This document shows positions 2,923 to 45,270 of a stretch of 64,000 nucleotides of DNA, piece after piece; positions within the stretch are counted from its first letter, which is position 1; each line of letters opens with the position of its first letter. The notes under the pieces are model-generated. The model was not told where the DNA came from and ran no database searches. It saw nothing but the letters and a program-made list of their open reading frames with translations. Both the position numbers and the translations under genes were made by a program. This DNA comes from Escherichia coli (lineage in GTDB: Bacteria > Pseudomonadota > Gammaproteobacteria > Enterobacterales > Enterobacteriaceae): the NCBI RefSeq assembly GCF_024700885.2, contig NZ_CP117014.1. One strand, 5' to 3'.

Positions 2923-3513
2923 CTACACAAAAACAGATGATATGTTGCTACGGTTAATCGAGGTGTTTCCGCTGCATTGCAGGGTTACCGTGTTATGAGT
3001 GAAATAGCCTTCCGGTGTGCGTGGGGCGTCCAGTTGGTAACTCACGCTTTTGATAACAACGTCGGTAAGGGCTATGTTCCTACCTATGTTTAACGTTACT
3101 GTCTCCGGGCGACGACCGAATGGCGCTACATTGTTCAGTTCCGGCGATTCCATCTTCAGCAATGCTGTAATGGCTGCGTTTACTTCAAGTTGCGCGTTCG
3201 TTGTCGCCATGAAATCAATTACCAGATTAAATTCAGGCGGTTGCTGACCTTCCCAAACAAGCATTGAGTTGAAGAGGGTTTTTGTTGTTACGCCGGTTGC
3301 GGTCTGAAGCGTATCTGCAAGAGAGCCAGCCGCAGCGCTAATACCACCAAGCAAACCTCCTACTGACTGGTTTTCAAATGGTGATTGCCACATTGATGAC
3401 AGTTCTGCGGTAGATCCTTCACCGATATAACCGACGACCATATCCTCTGAAGAGAGGATATAAACCTTCATTAACGGACTTATTCCGTCAGGCATTATCG
3501 CGCCGCAAATCAA
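2923..3513 (-). CDS. Virion morphogenesis operon protein, hypothetical (196 aa)
   Basis: ORF in structural operon. Confidence 0.4.
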   Translation of the reverse strand: MICGAIMPDGISPLMKVYILSSEDMVVGYIGEGSTAELSSMWQSPFENQSVGGLLGGISAAAGSLADTLQTATGVTTKTLFNSMLVWEGQQPPEFNLVIDFMATTNAQLEVNAAITALLKMESPELNNVAPFGRRPETVTLNIGRNIALTDVVIKSVSYQLDAPRTPEGYFTHNTVTLQCSGNTSINRSNISSVFV

Positions 3514-35724: not shown

Positions 35725-36720
35725 ATGAGTGCAATAATCACCCCATATGTCGTAAATGAAACTGGTGTGGCTGTCTTTCCTGTAGATAAGCCCACCAGCA
35801 ATTACATCGGCGCAGGACGCCGTTTTCTTATATCCCCATTGCCGCGTGAACAGGCTGAAAACACCCCTGATGGTGTCGTTGACCTGAATTATTCACTGGT
35901 TGCCAACCAGTCACTGGCACCCTTTTTTCAAAGTGAGCGCGTATTTAACGCGTTAGGTGGTGAGGATTCTCTCGTTCACTGGGTTAGCACCAACATTCAC
36001 GATTGCCAGGTGCATGATAAGCGCGATTGCAGCCACCAGCTAACCACCCATTTCTATAACGGTTCTGCCGTTCGCCTGTGCTGGAAGCATGATGCGGAAT
36101 ACATGATGAAGGGATACGGCAAGCTGGAAGACCAACTGTCACTGAATCGCGCCAACTGGATTATGAACTGGGCTGCCAGCGAGTTAAAACTTCCGCCAGA
36201 TCGCGATCTGAGCATGGTTGAACTCACCTTTTGGGCCATTCGCCGGAATCTTAAAGACGAACTGCCTGATGAAGCTGGTCGCATTGCATTTTGTCAGCCA
36301 AAAACTGAAATCCCTACCGGCACTCTGAAAGAGTCGGATATTACTTGGGAGCATAGTACCCGCGAGCTGGTGGATATTTCCGCAGAGCAGATCGTCAATC
36401 TGTCCGTCGATGAAGATTCTGGCCTCCTATATATGCGCCGTCCAAAAACCTTACTCGGAAAAAGCCCGGCTTATCTCCGGTTTGTGGTGTCTCGCCCGTG
36501 TGTAGGCTGCGGCGGCAAGGTTAATCACCCATTCATGTACCGCGCCCGCTCGTTAAACGAACACGACCGCTGGACTGTTCCTCTTTGCGATGACTGCGCC
36601 AGAAGCGCAGAAAACGATGTCCGGGCATGGGAAAAAGCACATGGCATACGCCTTTACGTAGCCGCTAACCAGCTTTTCGACTTCGCCATTGAGCGCGGAG
36701 TGATCACGTTCAATAACTGA
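35725..36720 (+). CDS. Hypothetical protein with C-terminal Cys-cluster (331 aa)
   Basis: CVGCGG...CDDC near C-terminus. Confidence 0.4.
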   Translation: MSAIITPYVVNETGVAVFPVDKPTSNYIGAGRRFLISPLPREQAENTPDGVVDLNYSLVANQSLAPFFQSERVFNALGGEDSLVHWVSTNIHDCQVHDKRDCSHQLTTHFYNGSAVRLCWKHDAEYMMKGYGKLEDQLSLNRANWIMNWAASELKLPPDRDLSMVELTFWAIRRNLKDELPDEAGRIAFCQPKTEIPTGTLKESDITWEHSTRELVDISAEQIVNLSVDEDSGLLYMRRPKTLLGKSPAYLRFVVSRPCVGCGGKVNHPFMYRARSLNEHDRWTVPLCDDCARSAENDVRAWEKAHGIRLYVAANQLFDFAIERGVITFNN

Positions 36721-37027: not shown

Positions 37028-37664
37028 CCGCTTTTACATGATGTGCTTGCGTGAAACTGTGGGTAATAACGCCTCATTCCATTGCCATAACGGCAATGGT
37101 TACAGTTCTGATATCGATCGCGCTCATATTTACACGCTGGAAGAAGCCCAAAAAGCCTGGAATTGTGGGCGAGATATCGATCAGCCTGTTTGTGCCGATA
37201 GTGTGGATGCAATGGCTGTGTGGCACGTTGATTGCCAGTACATCCCTACAGAAAGCCTGATTGAGTCAGATTGCACTGAGTATGTGGCCTACAAAAAAGG
37301 TAGCTGGAACGGCAACGATGTTTACTGGCTTCAACACGGTGGATTGCCAACAGATGACTTCAGTAAAGCGACCATCTTTAGCTTCGCCAACAAAAACGAA
37401 CCAGGAATAGTTTGGTTGCCATTTTCCATTGCTGATGCAGCAAAGCGCCGGACGTTCAATATCAATAACTTTAACCGCAGAACAATGGTTCAGGGCGCAG
37501 GTTTGGTCATGCCTGACTGGTTGAAAGAGCAGAACAGAAGAAAGAAGTCGCGAAGCGGGAAGGTGCGTTGGAATTGTCCGCATTGCGGAAAAATAACCTG
37601 GCAGTACAGCCCATATGATTTTGAAGGCTGTCGTGATTACAACTGTGAAGGATGGCGAGAATGA
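37020..37664 (+). CDS. Cys-rich hypothetical protein (214 aa)
   Basis: Multiple Cys/His pairs including CPHCG. Confidence 0.35.
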   Translation: MNNRFYMMCLRETVGNNASFHCHNGNGYSSDIDRAHIYTLEEAQKAWNCGRDIDQPVCADSVDAMAVWHVDCQYIPTESLIESDCTEYVAYKKGSWNGNDVYWLQHGGLPTDDFSKATIFSFANKNEPGIVWLPFSIADAAKRRTFNINNFNRRTMVQGAGLVMPDWLKEQNRRKKSRSGKVRWNCPHCGKITWQYSPYDFEGCRDYNCEGWRE

Positions 37665-38374
37665 CAATTGACTATCAGGTACTGCGTGAGGCGGCAGAAA
37701 AGGCAACACCAGACGAATGGGTCGCATTTATTTCGACGGATACTGGTACTTATGCGGTGCACACGCCCGGTGATGAACGATGTGAAGACGTTATCAAATG
37801 GACCGGCTTTGATGGACAGAAAAATGCAGAGAACAACGCTCGTTATGTTGCCGCGTTCAACCCAAAGGTTGCACTGGAGCTTCTTGGTGAAATTAAGCGC
37901 CTGGAGGACACAAATATTGATGCTATGTGTCGAATTGCAGAGCTTGAGACTAATCTCGCGGCGCTGGCGGCGGAGAATGAACTGGCTCGTAAGGCAGTTC
38001 AGGCATTCTGCGATGTTGTTGGCGACAACACCGAGGTTATCGCTGAGGAGGTTGGGCGAGATGGCGTTCTGGTTATTTTGGAGGCCATGAAGGCAACAGG
38101 AAATATGCCAGCCACCGATGCTTTTCTGGCTGAAATTCGTGCGGAAGCACGCAACGAGGGAGTTAACTATACCGCCAGCCGTCTTGCTGCTGCGTTCAAT
38201 CACGGATTTATCAATAAGTCTTTGCGTGAAGTTTTCGACGTTACACGCATGATTTTGTCAGCGAAAGAAGAGTTGGCTAATGAAGCGCATCCGATTGATG
38301 GCCTGTCTGGTGAATATGCGGAGAAATCCCTTGAAGAATGGGCGGAACAGATTCGCAAAGGAGCTGACAAGTGA
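37652..38374 (+). CDS. Ea22/Ead-like early-region protein
   Basis: N-terminal YQVLREAAEKAT and AAFNPKVALELL cassettes shared with 39309 paralog; coiled coil. Confidence 0.45.
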   Translation: MARMTIDYQVLREAAEKATPDEWVAFISTDTGTYAVHTPGDERCEDVIKWTGFDGQKNAENNARYVAAFNPKVALELLGEIKRLEDTNIDAMCRIAELETNLAALAAENELARKAVQAFCDVVGDNTEVIAEEVGRDGVLVILEAMKATGNMPATDAFLAEIRAEARNEGVNYTASRLAAAFNHGFINKSLREVFDVTRMILSAKEELANEAHPIDGLSGEYAEKSLEEWAEQIRKGADK

Positions 38375-38788: not shown

Positions 38789-39322
38789 ATGAAATTCTCC
38801 AAATTTTCTGAGTTGGTGAATCGTATTTTGTTGAATCGTATTTTGTCCAACAACCACAGCCATCGTCGCGATATGGATGTAACGATCGTTGTTCATTCGC
38901 CTGGCAGCATTGGTTCAACACCCTCAGTTGAGGTTCAGTCAATTCACGCTGGTTTTGATTGGGATTCCGGGAAAGTGCTGATTTTCCCAGCACAGCCACT
39001 GACCACTCTAACACCAGAACAGATTACTGATATTACTGATAGTGTGCGCAAAGGTCAGTCCTGGCACGCATATCAGGAATACAAGAAGCATAAAGAGCAG
39101 TTGGAAAAATTATCGATTGAACTTGATACCGCAAAACAGCGCATTGCAGAGCTGGAGAGCAATCGCGCGGCGCTGGCGGCGGAGCATGGTATTCAGATTG
39201 CAATAAATGAACTGCTTGCTCTGGCCCCGCGTCTGGATAAACGAGCGGTGGATGCACTCTCTGTGGCTGTGGAGCACCTGTGTAAACTGATTAAGAAGGA
39301 GGCAGTCAGTGAGCAAAATTAA
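38789..39322 (+). CDS. Ea22-like coiled-coil protein (start refined to ATG 38789)
   Basis: IAELESNRAALAAEHG coiled-coil cassette shared with paralogs. Confidence 0.4.
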   Translation: MKFSKFSELVNRILLNRILSNNHSHRRDMDVTIVVHSPGSIGSTPSVEVQSIHAGFDWDSGKVLIFPAQPLTTLTPEQITDITDSVRKGQSWHAYQEYKKHKEQLEKLSIELDTAKQRIAELESNRAALAAEHGIQIAINELLALAPRLDKRAVDALSVAVEHLCKLIKKEAVSEQN

Positions 39323-40064
39323 TTACCAGGCACTGCGTGAGGCGGCAGAGAAAGCAACGTGGGGAGACTGGGACTCATATAAACCACACCGTGGCGCACG
39401 TGGTTATAAGGTCCGACTAAGTGGTCAGGCCATTGCGCAACACGTTCTGAAAAACAACGCTGAATTTATTGCTGCCTTTAATCCAAAGGTTGCTTTGGCA
39501 TTACTGGATGAACTGGAAAGAAACCAGCAATACATCAAACGCCGCGACCAGAAGAACGAGGATATTGCTCTTACGGTTGGGAAGCTGAGAGTTGAGCTTG
39601 AGGAAGTAAAACAACACGCTGAAGAATTATCCGAAACCAAGGCTGTTCGTAACCAATGGCGGCCAGATATTTGCCCAATAACCGGACGTGCATTTTTCAT
39701 GTGGATTGAGCATCCAACATTGGGAAATGTGCCGACATATGGTGGCCCATTAGATAGTTACACCATTCCAACAAAGGACGGTGACGGTGAGTTTTCATGT
39801 GAGCGTTACGATCATGATTTTGGCGGTTGGGTAGAAAGCGAATGTCTTGGGTTATATCTGATTGATGATAGAGAACAATGCAGGGTCTACGAACTGGAGG
39901 AGCGCGTTAAGGAACTGGATGCTCGGGAAATATCGCTCCCGGAACGTAGCAGCATGCTTCATCGAACAGATTTTCACGATGATTACCAAACGGTAATGGC
40001 ATACAAAGTTTCTGAAGTCATCGATGCAATCCGCGCTACTGGCATTCGCATCAAAGGAGAGTGA
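39309..40064 (+). CDS. Ea22/Ead-like early-region protein
   Basis: N-terminal YQALREAAEKAT / AAFNPKVALALL cassettes. Confidence 0.45.
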   Translation: MSKINYQALREAAEKATWGDWDSYKPHRGARGYKVRLSGQAIAQHVLKNNAEFIAAFNPKVALALLDELERNQQYIKRRDQKNEDIALTVGKLRVELEEVKQHAEELSETKAVRNQWRPDICPITGRAFFMWIEHPTLGNVPTYGGPLDSYTIPTKDGDGEFSCERYDHDFGGWVESECLGLYLIDDREQCRVYELEERVKELDAREISLPERSSMLHRTDFHDDYQTVMAYKVSEVIDAIRATGIRIKGE

Positions 40065-40751: not shown

Positions 40752-42272
40752 ATGACCACTATTACCAAAGAACGTATTGAATTGTTCATTAAAAATCCGC
40801 TTGAAAACGGGCTTACCCGTGGTGAACAAATGGAACTGGCACGGATTGCGCTGGCATCGCTGGAAGCAGATCCAGTTAAACGAGTTAACTCAGATCAGAT
40901 GCGCCGAGTCTGCTTAGAAGCTAATCGCCATTTAGATAAATATGACGCGATGGCGAAAGAGGTAAATAAGTTGCTTGGACGCATCGCCCCGCCAGCGCCG
41001 GTAGTGCCGGAAGAAGCAACTCCGGAAAACGTAGAAATGCTCTCTGGCTATGTTTCCACGTACAAATTAACCGATAGCGAGCGCGATATTGCTGCCGAAA
41101 TATGGAACGCCTGCCGCACCGCCATGCTTCAGTCCGGAAACTTTCGGGAAAGCAAGAATTCGTCAACCAATAATTTTCGGGAAATCGCGGAAACGTCAAC
41201 CAACTATCCGGTAATTCCTAGTGAGGTGTTGTCAGCAATCCTGAAGTTTGCCAGAGTTCGTGCCGATTTCGATGATTTTGACGGTGACAGGCGAGGTATC
41301 GGTGATTGTCTGGATGAGGCCGAGCAAGAGCTTATCGTTACCATTAACAAATATGCCAGTCAGTTGGCAGCAGAACCGATAGCGACTAATGACGTTCGAG
41401 AGCAAACAGCCGTTCCGCCAATACAGGCTGATGTCGCGCAAGCAATTGAAAATCTCAAGCAGAAGTTAGTGGAATGCAATCGCTATAACTACTGCGCAGA
41501 TGCAGTTAAAGGCGTAGAGGATGCCAGCCGCGTCTTGGCACTCCAAAATCAAAATATGTCAGCACCGGTAACGCCGGAGGCCATTGAAAACGCAATTGAA
41601 TATATCCGCAGTATCGCTTTTCACATCGATGAAGACGATTACCACGGCAAGCATATTGCGTATTTCATGCGACAAGCATTGGCCTGGCTGGAAGGGCATT
41701 CATGCAGCGACGACAGGCTGGGTAAGGCCGACAATCAACCCGCATCTGGTAACCAGTCTGCCGAATCCAATCGCGGTAATGAGTGGACCGGCAATCCTGA
41801 TATTGATAACGCCATCATCATGCTCGACCGCATAGATACGGCGGAAAGTTGCGATGATGACCGTATTGAGGCCGTTAAGGCTGTGTTGCGTAGACTGGCA
41901 GGCAACTATCCGGATATTCCGGATAGTTCGGTGCCAGCGCCAGGAAAGGGCGTCACCGGTGAACGTATCCGCATTAAGCCGCATGTTTATCGCGAACTGG
42001 TTAACCGTCTCCACGATACAGCGATCAAGTGTGCTGGCACCCAGCAATTACGAGAAAGAATTAGCCGTGTTTTGGGCGACGTTATTACACCAGATCATCA
42101 TAAACAAGCCGAGAAAAGTGGCCTGGAAAGGTGTCGCCTTGAGGCGGCATTAAACATTAAGCCGGGGCATACGCTTGGCATTATTGATGCACTATTGGTT
42201 CATAAGATGGCCAGGGCTTTATTGCCGCTGGTGGCTGAAAAGCATGAGGTGGACCATGCCAACGAAAGCTGA
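40752..42272 (+). CDS. Large early-region protein (506 aa) with Ea22-type N-terminal cassette
   Basis: N-terminus duplicates 40066 gene; internal APPAPVVPEE linker also shared. Confidence 0.4.
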   Translation: MTTITKERIELFIKNPLENGLTRGEQMELARIALASLEADPVKRVNSDQMRRVCLEANRHLDKYDAMAKEVNKLLGRIAPPAPVVPEEATPENVEMLSGYVSTYKLTDSERDIAAEIWNACRTAMLQSGNFRESKNSSTNNFREIAETSTNYPVIPSEVLSAILKFARVRADFDDFDGDRRGIGDCLDEAEQELIVTINKYASQLAAEPIATNDVREQTAVPPIQADVAQAIENLKQKLVECNRYNYCADAVKGVEDASRVLALQNQNMSAPVTPEAIENAIEYIRSIAFHIDEDDYHGKHIAYFMRQALAWLEGHSCSDDRLGKADNQPASGNQSAESNRGNEWTGNPDIDNAIIMLDRIDTAESCDDDRIEAVKAVLRRLAGNYPDIPDSSVPAPGKGVTGERIRIKPHVYRELVNRLHDTAIKCAGTQQLRERISRVLGDVITPDHHKQAEKSGLERCRLEAALNIKPGHTLGIIDALLVHKMARALLPLVAEKHEVDHANES

Positions 42273-42540
42273 ATTACAGGTGCGCGTAGATGAGCTTGAA
42301 AAAGAGAACGCGAGCCTCAAAAAAATGCTGTCGCGGGCGGAAAGGGAATTATCAGGCAAATTATTGCCAGAAGAACTGCCACCAGCAGATATACCTGATC
42401 GAGTGTCCTGGTGGATGAAGTATTTCCGTGCACCGTGGGAGGCGTTTTGGTGCTACGACCATCGCAGATGGTGTGATGAGCTTGATAGCAGTTTCCCCTA
42501 TTTTGCAGAAGGGAACTCTTGCCCTGAATGTAGGCGTTAA
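42256..42540 (+). CDS. Coiled-coil / zinc-ribbon small protein, paralog A
   Basis: C-terminal W..PWE.F.C.DH..W.DELD.SFPYF...CP.C shared with next gene. Confidence 0.4.
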   Translation: MPTKAELQVRVDELEKENASLKKMLSRAERELSGKLLPEELPPADIPDRVSWWMKYFRAPWEAFWCYDHRRWCDELDSSFPYFAEGNSCPECRR

Positions 42541-42845
42541 TGATGACCGGCGAGCTTTATTTTAAAATGGCACGGGAGCGGCGTGTGCATCTGGATCGGA
42601 TATTTCATCTCCAGAAGAGAGTAGAAGAACTGGAACGTCGTCTGAACTGTTATCCTGTTGATATGGTGTCTGCAATACCGCCGATTCCAATAGAAATGCA
42701 GATCCGCCTATGGATGGAAGAATATGGAATGCCGTGGGAGATATTTTTCTGCTTCGACCATAAACAGTGGGTAGATGAGCTGGATAATAGTTTCCCATAT
42801 TTCACAGAGAACACATGCCCAGTATGCAGGAAGAACGGAATATGA
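42540..42845 (+). CDS. Coiled-coil / zinc-ribbon small protein, paralog B
   Basis: Tandem paralog of previous gene. Confidence 0.4.
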   Translation: MMTGELYFKMARERRVHLDRIFHLQKRVEELERRLNCYPVDMVSAIPPIPIEMQIRLWMEEYGMPWEIFFCFDHKQWVDELDNSFPYFTENTCPVCRKNGI

Positions 42846-43366
42846 CAAAATTTGGAAAGCTGGAAGCTCATTTGCTAACTCGCAACTACCGCCATGATAT
42901 ACACCCATATAGACAGTGGATCGATGAAAGCGAAGGAGTAGTTACATTCCCTCTCTACAGGTTTGATGGGATGTTGGCTGGGTATCAGACATATAGACCA
43001 GGTGCACCTAAGCAGCATAGCAATCCGAAGATGGCCCGGTATTTCACGCGATCACACGGCAGACAGTTACTTTGGGGAACCTATCTTCCTTTAAAAGATG
43101 GCCCAATATGGATAACTGAGTCTATTTTTAAGAGCGCAGCTGTACACAACGCGGGCGGCAATTCGTGGGCGCTGTTAGGTTCAACTTTCTCCGCAGGATT
43201 ACGCCGTCAACTTGCGATGCTGCCGTATGACTTTCGCGTAATAGGTGACAATGATGCGGCTGGTGAATCACTTGTGAAGTCTTTCGGAAAAGGTTTTGTG
43301 GCCCCGGATCTTGACGAGCTACAACCACATGAAGTGTCTCATTTGATTTTTAGCCATAGCCAATAA
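42815..43366 (+). CDS. Hypothetical protein with Toprim-like acidic motif (start uncertain)
   Basis: ...ITESIFKSAAV...VIGDNDAAGE... resembles a Toprim E / DxD arrangement. Confidence 0.3.
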   Translation: MPSMQEERNMTKFGKLEAHLLTRNYRHDIHPYRQWIDESEGVVTFPLYRFDGMLAGYQTYRPGAPKQHSNPKMARYFTRSHGRQLLWGTYLPLKDGPIWITESIFKSAAVHNAGGNSWALLGSTFSAGLRRQLAMLPYDFRVIGDNDAAGESLVKSFGKGFVAPDLDELQPHEVSHLIFSHSQ

Positions 43367-43574
43367 GCATCTCTCCCCTTTGAGGTCACAATTAGTGGCC
43401 TTAAACAATGTGTTTTCTACCTCGATTTAGCCTTTATTATCGTTTTGCATTTCTCTAATCCGGGCAACGAGGTTACGCTGATTCGTTGGTGATGAATAGT
43501 AGCAAAGCGCACAAAATCATCTGCGGTGGTTGATGTACGTAACGCGTTTGCACCAAATGTGTCTCTTTAATGTA

Positions 43575-43594
43575 TACTGTATAAATGAACAGTA
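43575..43594. promoter_or_regulatory. LexA (SOS) box upstream of humD
   Basis: TACTGTATAAATGAACAGTA = CTGT-N8-ACAG consensus, 20 bp upstream of ATG. Confidence 0.7.
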
Positions 43595-43613: not shown

Positions 43614-44003
43614 ATGGGCTTCCCTTCTCCTGCGGCGGACTATGTTGAAAGCCGAATTTCTCTTGATCAGCAACTAATCAGGCATCCATCAGCGACATAC
43701 TTCATGCGGGCGGCAGACAGCCATCACCGTGAGGGAATATTGCAGGGTGCTTTGCTGGTGGTTGATTCTTCGCTTACTCCAGTTGATGGTTCGCTGCTTG
43801 TGTGCGCTATGGAGGGAGAATATCGCGTAAAAAGATACCGGAAGTATCCGCGCCAGCACCTGGAGGATTTAAGCACCGGGAAGAAAGAGGCGTTACCAGT
43901 AGATGACGATGGTTACACGGGTAGTAATGCTGTTTTTGGTGTGATCACCCACATTATCAATGACGCCAGGGGCGGTGAATTTGATGATAGTCCTGCTATA
44001 TGA
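43614..44003 (+). CDS. humD: UmuD-prime-like S24 peptidase-fold protein (P1 HumD-like)
   Basis: 129 aa aligning with UmuD C-terminal domain (...LLVVDSS...GEYRVKRY...FGVITHII); SOS box upstream. Confidence 0.65.
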   Translation: MGFPSPAADYVESRISLDQQLIRHPSATYFMRAADSHHREGILQGALLVVDSSLTPVDGSLLVCAMEGEYRVKRYRKYPRQHLEDLSTGKKEALPVDDDGYTGSNAVFGVITHIINDARGGEFDDSPAI

Positions 44004-44560: not shown

Positions 44561-44668
44561 TCCCAGCAATTGCAAGACTGCATCTCGAGGATTTAAGGCA
44601 CCAAGAAGTGGTATTCAGCATCATTAAAACCTATAATTGCGTACACATAACGAGCACACGAGGTGTTT

Positions 44669-44890
44669 ATGCAATCCATTAACTTCCGTACCGCGCGCGG
44701 CAACCTTTCTGAAGTGCTCAACAATGTTGAAGCCGGGGAAGAGGTTGAAATCACCCGCAGAGGCCGTGAGCCAGCAGTAATTGTCAGCAAGGCTACTTTT
44801 GAAGCCTACAAAAAAGCGGCGCTGGATGCCGAATTTGCATCCCTGTTTGACACCCTGGACTCCACCAACAAGGAACTGGTTAACCGATAA
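44669..44890 (+). CDS. phd: Phd antitoxin
   Basis: 73 aa from [13 protein letters not shown]...; recognised as P1 Phd; stop overlaps doc start. Confidence 0.85.
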
Positions 44891-45270
44891 TGAGGCATAT
44901 ATCACCGGAAGAACTTATTGCGCTTCATGATGCGAATATAAGCCGCTACGGCGGCCTGCCGGGAATGTCAGATCCGGGTAGGGCAGAGGCCATTATCGGG
45001 AGAGTTCAGGCCAGAGTTGCCTACGAAGAGATCACCGACCTTTTCGAAGTCTCCGCCACCTACCTGGTGGCTACGGCGAGAGGGCATATATTCAATGATG
45101 CCAATAAGCGTACCGCGCTAAACAGTGCGCTGCTATTTCTACGCCGTAACGGTATACAGGTATATGATGATCCCGTGCTGGTGGAGCTTGCAGTGGGGGC
45201 TGCAACTGGTGAAATCCCCGTATCTTCAGTAGCGAAAAAACTACGTGAACTATATGGTTCCAATATTTGA
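44890..45270 (+). CDS. doc: Doc toxin (Fic-fold kinase)
   Basis: 126 aa with HIFNDANKR Fic motif; P1 Doc-like. Confidence 0.85.

What the first reader, a model, noticed from the sequence alone, without database searches (positions are those of the whole stretch)
42256..42845. Tandem paralogs with coiled coil and C-terminal zinc ribbon
Two adjacent small genes share W..PWE.F.C.DH..W.DELD.SFPYF...CP.C at the C-terminus with divergent coiled-coil N-termini, indicating a tandem duplication with diversification.
Basis: seen in the sequence. Interest (0 to 1): 0.3.

Follow-up and report, generated by a model that had tools for sequence, protein, structure and literature searches.

The report
Paired small zinc-binding phage accessory genes
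Two adjacent small genes in a P1/D6-like phage-plasmid are real but anciently diverged relatives from a rare, uncharacterised phage protein family (a dimerising helix plus a tiny acidic zinc-binding domain); they are ordinary dispensable accessory genes whose function is still unknown.

Summary
Gene A (42256-42540, 94 aa) and gene B (42540-42845, 101 aa) are homologous (BLASTP 42% identity, E 6e-23). Both belong to phrog_3797, a family of unknown function. Each has an N-terminal heptad-repeat helix, a proline-rich linker and a roughly 50-residue C-terminal domain with near-invariant Cys, His, Cys, Cys.

A and B are not recent local duplicates. They fall in separate deep clades, and B is closer to proteins of Klebsiella phage LASTA (63%) than to A. 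Gene A is in 135 PLSDB plasmids, gene B in 13. An A-type/B-type pair nevertheless recurs, A upstream of B, in diverged Citrobacter-type phage-plasmids, so the pairing is old.

The predicted zinc site (a Cys/His hairpin plus a helix N-terminus) looks treble-clef-like rather than a classic zinc ribbon. The domain has no Pfam, PDB or viral-structure match outside the family, and it is acidic in every member.

A link to the downstream toprim gene as a split primase was tested and rejected.

The genes sit in a known hypervariable, non-essential region of P1-like elements. Their most likely role is as dimeric protein-binding modulators of a host or rival-element target; this is inferred, not shown.

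Interest is low to moderate.

The parts
42256..42540 (+). Gene A (94 aa), A-type member of phrog_3797. It overlaps the upstream pmgU-like gene by 17 nt. A GAGG Shine-Dalgarno sequence ends 6 nt before the ATG.
   Evidence: dN/dS 0.23-0.38 among alleles
42265..42354 (+). Gene A residues 4-33: heptad-repeat (leucine-zipper-like) helix. Position a = V11, N18, L25, L32; position d = L7, L14, L21, A28.
   Evidence: z = 11 against shuffles; weak sub-threshold bZIP zipper-part hits
42388..42537 (+). Gene A C-terminal Cys/His domain (residues 45-94). Putative zinc ligands are C66 (42451-42453), H69 (42460-42462), C89 (42520-42522) and C92 (42529-42531).
42540..42845 (+). Gene B (101 aa), B-type member of phrog_3797. 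Its start overlaps the stop of A (TAATG), and its stop overlaps the start of the toprim gene (ATGA).
   Evidence: 100% identical in 13 IMG/VR loci and at least 99% identical in 13 plasmids
42543..42647 (+). Gene B residues 2-36: long helix with heptad repeat (a = I21, V28, L35; d = L24, L31).
42675..42842 (+). Gene B C-terminal Cys/His domain (residues 46-101). Putative zinc ligands are C71 (42750-42752), H74 (42759-42761), C93 (42816-42818) and C96 (42825-42827).
   Evidence: AlphaFold pLDDT 92.9 for the domain alone
40752..42272 (+). Context: upstream 506-aa gene of the same operon. It is EaA/pmgU-like, and its C-terminal 124 residues are conserved next to gene A in related elements.
42842..43366 (+). 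Context: 174-aa toprim-only protein, translationally coupled to B. It belongs to a stand-alone family found in 490 phage records, including the 172-aa T5 'DNA primase'. It is not a functional partner of the A/B family in general.
43379..43405 (+). Context: terminator-like hairpin (11-bp stem) just after the toprim gene; a possible end of the operon.

Best explanation
Genes A and B are two anciently diverged members (A-type and B-type) of a rare family restricted to temperate phages and phage-plasmids. The family is catalogued as phrog_3797 and has no Pfam entry. Each protein is about 100 aa: an N-terminal amphipathic heptad helix of about 30-35 residues that most likely forms a parallel coiled-coil dimer, a proline-rich linker, and an acidic, aromatic-rich domain of about 50 residues held together by one structural zinc ion bound by Cys-x2-His ... 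Cys-x2-Cys.

The genes lie in the early accessory ('ea/hea'-type) operon, in the hypervariable and non-essential pmgT-humD region of a D6/P1-like phage-plasmid, and appear to be translationally coupled to their neighbours.

Shown: homology, family membership, conserved ligand pattern, purifying selection, a confident predicted fold, dispensability, modular exchange, and recurrence of the A-type/B-type pair.

Inferred: zinc binding, dimerisation, and the mechanism. I think the zinc domain is a protein-binding module, presented as a dimer, that binds and modulates a host or competing-element protein (host takeover or counter-defence). I do not think it binds nucleic acid. The two types probably have different targets or partner specificities, which would explain why both are kept together in several lineages.
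For: Homology and family:
- BLASTP E 6e-23; both match phrog_3797.
- Only 32 clusters at 50% identity among 1.84 billion proteins.
- A profile search found 34 hits, all 95-116 aa, with no fusions and no Pfam domains.

Zinc site:
- C, H, C, C are invariant or near-invariant.
- The His is replaced by Cys in P0060, P0065 and Proteus phage Brookers gp52, with a matching change of the second pair to CxC. This is the behaviour expected of metal ligands.

Fold:
- pLDDT 89.8 for the full protein and 92.9 for the domain alone. The hairpin carries C..H, and the helix starts at CxxC.

Coiled coil:
- Heptad z = 11 for A and 7 for B; family median 2.9.
- A has Asn at an 'a' position.

Protein binding rather than nucleic-acid binding:
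- The C-domain has negative net charge in all 32 members (median -5, pI 4.7).

Accessory status:
- The pmgT-humD region is one of eight hypervariable regions of P1-like phage-plasmids (PMC9603915).
- All P1 genes tested there are non-essential (PMC10695390).
- Phage D6's own copy of A carries a 10-bp frameshifting deletion.
- B is deleted in loci L023-L028.
- Family members sit in the nin region of P22-like phages and in the early regions of LASTA, Brookers and a Vibrio phage.

Age of the pair:
- An A-type followed by a B-type on the same strand also occurs in Citrobacter plasmid CP056338.1, in L041 and in L043.
Against: - There is no experimental or homology-based link to any function.
- No neighbour is conserved across the family, so guilt by association gives nothing specific.
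- No PDB or BFVD structural analogue exists outside the family.
- Zinc binding and dimerisation are predictions only. I could not inspect model coordinates or run a multimer prediction.
- Each type also occurs alone, so a required A-B partnership is unlikely.
- B has a mildly basic N-terminal stretch (KMARERR), so some nucleic-acid contact is not excluded.
Confidence: 0.55

Rival explanations
1. Recent in-situ tandem duplication of one gene, followed by rapid divergence of the N-terminus.
For: The genes abut on the same strand and share 61% identity in the C-domain. Within gene A alleles, all amino-acid changes are in the coiled coil.
Against: A and B are never sisters (0 of 200 bootstraps), and the B clade, which includes LASTA and LASTA-like phage proteins, has 99.5% support. 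B is 63-70% identical to proteins in unrelated phages but only 37-42% identical to A. Third-codon-position identity in the C-domain is only 54%. Gene A is in 135 plasmids and gene B in 13. Each N-terminal type is conserved within its own clade across genera.
Confidence: 0.07
2. Split primase: A and/or B supply the missing DnaG-type CHC2 zinc-binding domain for the downstream toprim-only protein.
For: The ligand pattern C-x2-H-x18/19-C-x2-C resembles the CxxH-x17-CxxC of DnaG zf-CHC2 (recalled from memory). B is translationally coupled to a toprim protein that aligns only to positions 143-333 of the 435-position 'DNA primase' family phrog_849. B and the toprim gene travel together in 12 of 13 IMG/VR loci.
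Confidence: 0.03
3. Sequence-specific DNA-binding transcription regulators, either bZIP-like or of the zinc-finger activator type such as Ogr/Delta.
For: Weak sub-threshold hits to the zipper part of bZIP models (E 0.003) and to phrog_4580 'transcription factor' (E 1.3e-4). B has a modestly basic stretch before the zipper. The genes are in an early operon.
Against: In A the heptad helix starts at residue 4, so there is no basic region. The hits cover only the generic coiled coil and fall below the Pfam thresholds. The conserved domain has negative net charge in every member.
Confidence: 0.12
4. Functional analogues of the secondary-channel RNA polymerase regulators (TraR/DksA-like): a long N-terminal helix plus a small zinc globule that binds RNA polymerase.
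For: The architecture is similar (helix followed by a small zinc domain). TraR-like genes are common in phage and plasmid accessory regions (background knowledge). The A-type N-terminus MPTKAELQ is conserved even where the upstream gene differs.
Against: No zf-dskA_traR Pfam hit. The ligands are CHCC, not C4. The heptad pattern with Asn at an 'a' position suggests a parallel dimer rather than a single inserted helix. There is no structural match.
Confidence: 0.08
5. A toxin-antitoxin pair or a Phd antitoxin, as some database records name gene A ('antitoxin PHD').
For: Two small overlapping genes. Several NCBI/UniRef entries call A 'antitoxin PHD'.
Against: A and B are homologous to each other, which toxin-antitoxin partners are not. 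A has no PhdYeFM_antitox hit. The true phd-doc pair lies at 44663-45270. Both genes occur singly.
Confidence: 0.02

Closest known systems
PHROG family phrog_3797 (function unknown)
   Same: Both A (E 4.8e-59, full length) and B (E 1.6e-36) match this profile. The length and architecture are the same.
   Different: Nothing differs: this is the family. It carries no functional annotation, no Pfam counterpart and no solved structure.
DnaG-type CHC2 zinc-binding domain (Pfam zf-CHC2, PF01807)
   Same: Same order and similar spacing of the ligands Cys-x2-His ... Cys-x2-Cys. In the window, B sits next to a toprim gene.
   Different: No sequence, profile or fold similarity. The domain is mostly helical with a single hairpin, it is acidic, and it ends at the CxxC. 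The family is not generally linked to toprim genes.
TraR/DksA family of zinc-finger RNA polymerase secondary-channel regulators
   Same: Small proteins encoded by phages and plasmids, with a long helix plus a small zinc-stabilised globule, found in accessory regions.
   Different: DksA/TraR have a C4 zinc finger and a single helix or an antiparallel hairpin. Here the ligands are CHCC and there is a zipper-like heptad helix. No HMM match was found.
Treble-clef zinc fingers (structural class)
   Same: The predicted site uses a Cys/His knuckle on a beta-hairpin plus two Cys at the N-terminus of a helix.
Other accessory 'ea/nin'-type early genes of temperate phages (P22 ea and nin regions, P1 pmgT-humD variable region 8)
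   Same: Same genomic niche: dispensable, mosaic, with overlapping start and stop codons.
   Different: That is a positional category, not a homologous family, and it says nothing about mechanism.

Membership tests
phrog_3797 | Significant full-length match to the family HMM | tested here: met
   A: E 4.8e-59, positions 1-93 of 94. B: E 1.6e-36, positions 1-94 of 94.
DnaG-type zf-CHC2 zinc-binding domain | Cys-x2-His ... Cys-x2-Cys ligand pattern | tested here: met
   A has C66, H69, C89, C92 and B has C71, H74, C93, C96. The ligand spacing is 18-19 residues, against 17 in E. coli DnaG (recalled from memory).
DnaG-type zf-CHC2 zinc-binding domain | Match to Pfam PF01807 or profile similarity to a DnaG zinc-binding domain | tested here: not met
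   No hit at E up to 10 for any of 32 domain sequences. hhalign probability 0.3%.
DnaG-type zf-CHC2 zinc-binding domain | Zinc-ribbon/beta-sheet fold of the primase zinc-binding domain | tested here: not met
DnaG-type zf-CHC2 zinc-binding domain | Consistent fusion or linkage to a toprim/primase catalytic domain | tested here: not met
   All 34 profile hits are 95-116 aa with no fusions. There is no toprim neighbour in LASTA, SE10, Brookers, the Vibrio phage, or L031-L046.
DksA/TraR C4 zinc finger (PF01258) | HMM match and four-Cys site | tested here: not met
   No Pfam hit. The second ligand is His in over 90% of members.
bZIP transcription factors | Basic DNA-contact region immediately N-terminal to the leucine zipper, and a Pfam score above threshold | tested here: not met
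   bZIP_1 scores 17.9 bits against a cutoff of 27.6, covering the zipper part only. The helix of A starts at residue 4.
Phd/YefM antitoxin (the name given in some records) | Match to PF02604 | tested here: not met
   No hit for A or B. The real Phd at 44663-44887 hits at E 3.1e-13.
Classic zinc ribbon | Two zinc knuckles, each on a beta-hairpin | tested here: inconclusive
   The model shows one hairpin knuckle and one helix N-terminus. Only single members gave marginal Zn_ribbon Pfam hits (E 0.08-0.14). Coordinates could not be inspected.
Zinc-binding protein (any) | Stoichiometric bound zinc | not testable with these tools
   Inferred from ligand conservation and His-to-Cys swaps only.
Known anti-phage defence components (PADLOC) | HMM match | tested here: not met
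   No hit for A or B.

The most novel reading that the evidence does not exclude
The A-type and B-type proteins form a conserved two-component module. It would work either as a heteromer or as two dimers acting on one pathway, built on a previously undescribed small zinc-binding fold. P1-like phage-plasmids would use it to control a central host machine, for example the replication/SOS apparatus (the neighbouring genes are hot, humD and toprim) or RNA polymerase. The recurrence of A-then-B order in diverged lineages would then reflect functional coupling.
Probability: 0.12. Interest if true: 0.6.

Novelty: new member of a known kind. Interest (0 to 1): 0.28.

Why it matters
The practical gains are modest.
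- The work corrects a propagated misannotation: gene A is named 'antitoxin PHD' in some records.
- It defines a compact, confidently modelled domain family with a CHCC site and no Pfam or PDB counterpart.
- It shows that the apparent tandem duplicate is an old A-type/B-type pair that is repeatedly reshuffled in the hypervariable pmgT-humD region of P1-like phage-plasmids.

If the domain proves to be a dimeric inhibitor of a host or defence protein, it would add one more small phage effector family and a new zinc fold. Nothing here yet suggests an unusual mechanism.

Tried and rejected
1. Split-primase idea (CHC2 zinc domain plus toprim). Rejected on several grounds:
- no Pfam hit and hhalign probability 0.3%;
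- distant toprim homologues have no A/B-like neighbour;
- the toprim family is widespread and stands alone.

2. 'B is a recent insertion next to A.' I first inferred this from the counts of 135 against 13 plasmids and the invariance of B. I then had to soften it. The 'A-only' loci L023-L028 keep the first 30 nt of B and are deletion derivatives, and A-type/B-type pairs exist in diverged Citrobacter-type elements.

4. The search for related loci with the family alignment failed because no stretch was conserved enough. The single-protein scan found only near-identical loci.

5. The search for a conserved neighbour across the family found none.

6. Literature searches by accession, PHROG id and gene names found no functional study of the family.

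7. Searches for P1 C1 operators and promoters to define regulation were uninformative. No operator consensus was found in the window, and the promoter scan was at or below chance level.

Full report
**What is there**

The window is a P1/D6-like phage-plasmid. The 41800-43400 segment matches 443 PLSDB plasmids, mostly non-mobilisable 90-100 kb plasmids from E. coli and Salmonella. It also matches phages D6, RCS47, P1, P7 and SJ46.

On the + strand, a packed run of genes ends with:
- a 506-aa pmgU/EaA-like gene (40752-42272);
- gene A (42256-42540, 94 aa);
- gene B (42540-42845, 101 aa);
- a 174-aa toprim-only gene (42842-43366).

These are followed by a LexA box, humD, an unknown gene, and phd-doc. 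Gene A overlaps the upstream gene by 17 nt. The stop of A and the start of B overlap as TAATG, and the stop of B and the toprim start overlap as ATGA. These overlaps point to co-transcription and translational coupling.

**Check of the observation**

- BLASTP of A against B gives 42% identity, E 6e-23. The C-terminal 41 aligned residues are 61% identical.
- Both match phrog_3797, a family of unknown function, over its full length.
- The heptad periodicity of the N-terminal helix is strong: z = 11 for A, 7 for B, and a family median of 2.9. AlphaFold predicts a single helix at residues 2-36 of B.
- Gene A alleles show dN/dS of 0.23-0.38. Every amino-acid change is in the coiled coil or at the last residue.

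**The family**

An exhaustive phmmer search of 1.84 billion representative proteins found only 32 clusters. A profile search with the C-domain against 5.8 billion proteins found 34 hits. All are 95-116 aa, with no domain fusions and no Pfam annotation.

The alignment shows near-invariant W-M, P-W-E, F-(W/Y)-C-x-(E/D)-H, W, E-L-D, F-P-(Y/H) and C-x2-C. In three members the His is replaced by Cys, and in those same members the second pair becomes C-x-C. This is how metal ligands behave.

No Pfam, NCBIfam or PADLOC model matches the domain, and no PDB sequence matches it.

The domain has a negative net charge in all 32 members, with a median of -5 and pI 4.7.

**Evolution of the pair**

A and B are not each other's closest relatives.
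- In NJ trees they sit in different deep clades. The B clade (B, P0056, Klebsiella phage LASTA, and the second copy in L041) has 99.5% bootstrap support. A and B were sisters in 0 of 200 replicates.
- B is 63-70% identical to single-copy proteins in LASTA-like phages.
- A is 55-66% identical to proteins in integrase-bearing prophages and in other phage-plasmids.

In PLSDB, gene A occurs in 135 plasmids at 80-99% nucleotide identity. Gene B occurs in 13, all at 99% or more, and the two are adjacent in 12.

Most plasmids that carry A have the D6-like layout: A, a minus-strand orf, hot, humD. I first read this as a recent insertion of B, but two results complicate that.
- Loci L023-L028 keep the first 30 nt of B and then jump into codon 22 or so of a minus-strand phrog_6164 gene. 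They are therefore deletion derivatives of an A, B, toprim, (-)gene layout. Only 4 plasmids carry that junction.
- An A-type gene followed on the same strand by a B-type gene also occurs in three other places:
  - Citrobacter freundii plasmid CP056338.1, with a 230-bp gap between the two;
  - L041, where a minus-strand gene separates them;
  - L043, where two small genes separate them.

  In these elements the A-type protein is 55% identical and the B-type protein (in L041) 67% identical to the window's proteins.

The pairing is therefore old and repeatedly rearranged, and each type also exists alone. 'Tandem paralogs' is correct. A local duplication with later diversification is not supported.

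**Context and dispensability**

The pmgT-humD segment is one of eight hypervariable regions of P1-like phage-plasmids (PMC9603915). All P1 genes tested in that region are non-essential by CRISPRi (PMC10695390).

Phage D6's own copy of gene A carries a 10-bp frameshifting deletion.

Elsewhere the family sits in early accessory regions:
- between ninF and ninG in P22-like Salmonella phages;
- downstream of the replication genes and upstream of ninB in Proteus phage Brookers;
- in the early regions of LASTA and of a Vibrio phage.

No neighbour is conserved across the family.

**Split-primase hypothesis: tested and rejected**

The CHCC pattern resembles the DnaG zf-CHC2 motif, and the downstream toprim protein aligns only to the middle of a 435-position primase family profile. 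Against this:
- there is no sequence, profile or fold similarity to a primase zinc-binding domain;
- the short toprim family stands alone in 490 phage records, including T5;
- its more distant homologues have unrelated upstream genes;
- B occurs without toprim in L021.

**Most likely mechanism (inferred)**

I think each protein is a coiled-coil dimer that presents two acidic, zinc-stabilised domains, and that these domains bind a protein target of the host or of a competing element. The A-type and B-type would differ in partner or target specificity.

The support is architectural: the heptad pattern (with Asn at an 'a' position in A), the uniformly acidic domain, the absence of a basic region in A, and the genomic niche.

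Rival readings are not excluded: a DNA-binding regulator, or a TraR/DksA-like regulator of RNA polymerase. There is no positive evidence for either. The database name 'antitoxin PHD' is a misannotation.

**Verdict**

This is a real, rare and uncharacterised family of phage accessory proteins with a small domain that is probably new structurally. The tandem arrangement is an old paralog pair in a recombination hot spot. It is ordinary in kind and unknown in function, so interest is low to moderate.

Noticed in passing
window 42842-43366: A toprim-only 174-aa protein matches only positions 143-333 of the 435-position 'DNA primase' family phrog_849. Homologues of about 165-175 aa occur in 490 phage records, including the 172-aa protein annotated 'DNA primase' in T5, Kagunavirus phages and jumbo Erwinia phages. 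It has no zinc-binding or helicase-binding domain, and its function is unclear.
   Followed up: partly
window 43463 (junction); compare L001 4147-4714: Relative to plasmid pKFu022_2, the window lacks 568 bp that hold most of a minus-strand 193-aa gene (phrog_6164, called 'DNA-binding protein' by NCBI). Only a 27-nt remnant is left at 43437-43463. This gene is a recurrent neighbour of the A/B genes in L001, L021, L041 and L044.
   Followed up: partly
L034 (phage D6) about 2957-3228: The reference D6 genome carries gene A with a 10-bp deletion that shifts the reading frame. It is annotated only as the 50-aa orf105. Clusters of 51-aa products (P0022, P0025, P0027) suggest the same lesion is present in other D6-like plasmids.
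   Followed up: partly
gene A homologues in NCBI/UniRef (e.g. P0002, P0010, P0067, P0101): Gene A is named 'antitoxin PHD' in several records although it has no Phd/YefM domain. The true phd-doc pair is at window 44663-45270.
   Followed up: yes
window, whole 64 kb: The P1 C1 operator consensus ATTGCTCTAATAAATTT was not found anywhere, even with up to 3 mismatches, although P7 has one just upstream of the equivalent operon. This suggests a non-P1 immunity type, consistent with the D6-like layout.
   Followed up: no
window 43577-43592: A canonical LexA box (CTGTATAAATGAACAG) lies just upstream of humD (43614-44003). humD therefore has its own SOS-regulated promoter, separate from the A/B/toprim operon.
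   Followed up: no
window 37652-38374 and 39309-40064: Two Ead/Ea22-like paralogs (Pfam PF13935) lie in the same operon, and a DUF968 (pdcB-like) gene is at 35725-36720. This is another case of paralogs in the accessory early operon.
   Followed up: no
P0059 (285 aa): One metagenomic cluster encodes an in-frame fusion of the pmgU-like C-terminus to gene A, starting from A residue 17. It probably arose by a small deletion across the 17-nt gene overlap.
   Followed up: no
L006 (Klebsiella phage LASTA) 3770-4294: The LASTA family member is annotated as a 174-aa ORF. Comparison with P0056 suggests the real start is the internal Met (MDERKQYVNELYFKM...), which would give a protein of about 106 aa.
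   Followed up: no
L003 3377-3571, L004 1-432, L044 983-1519: Genes with precomputed Pfam hits to Lar_restr_allev or Sequestin lie within a few kb of the toprim or A/B homologues. Lar_restr_allev is a restriction-alleviation family. This fits these regions being counter-defence or accessory islands.
   Followed up: no
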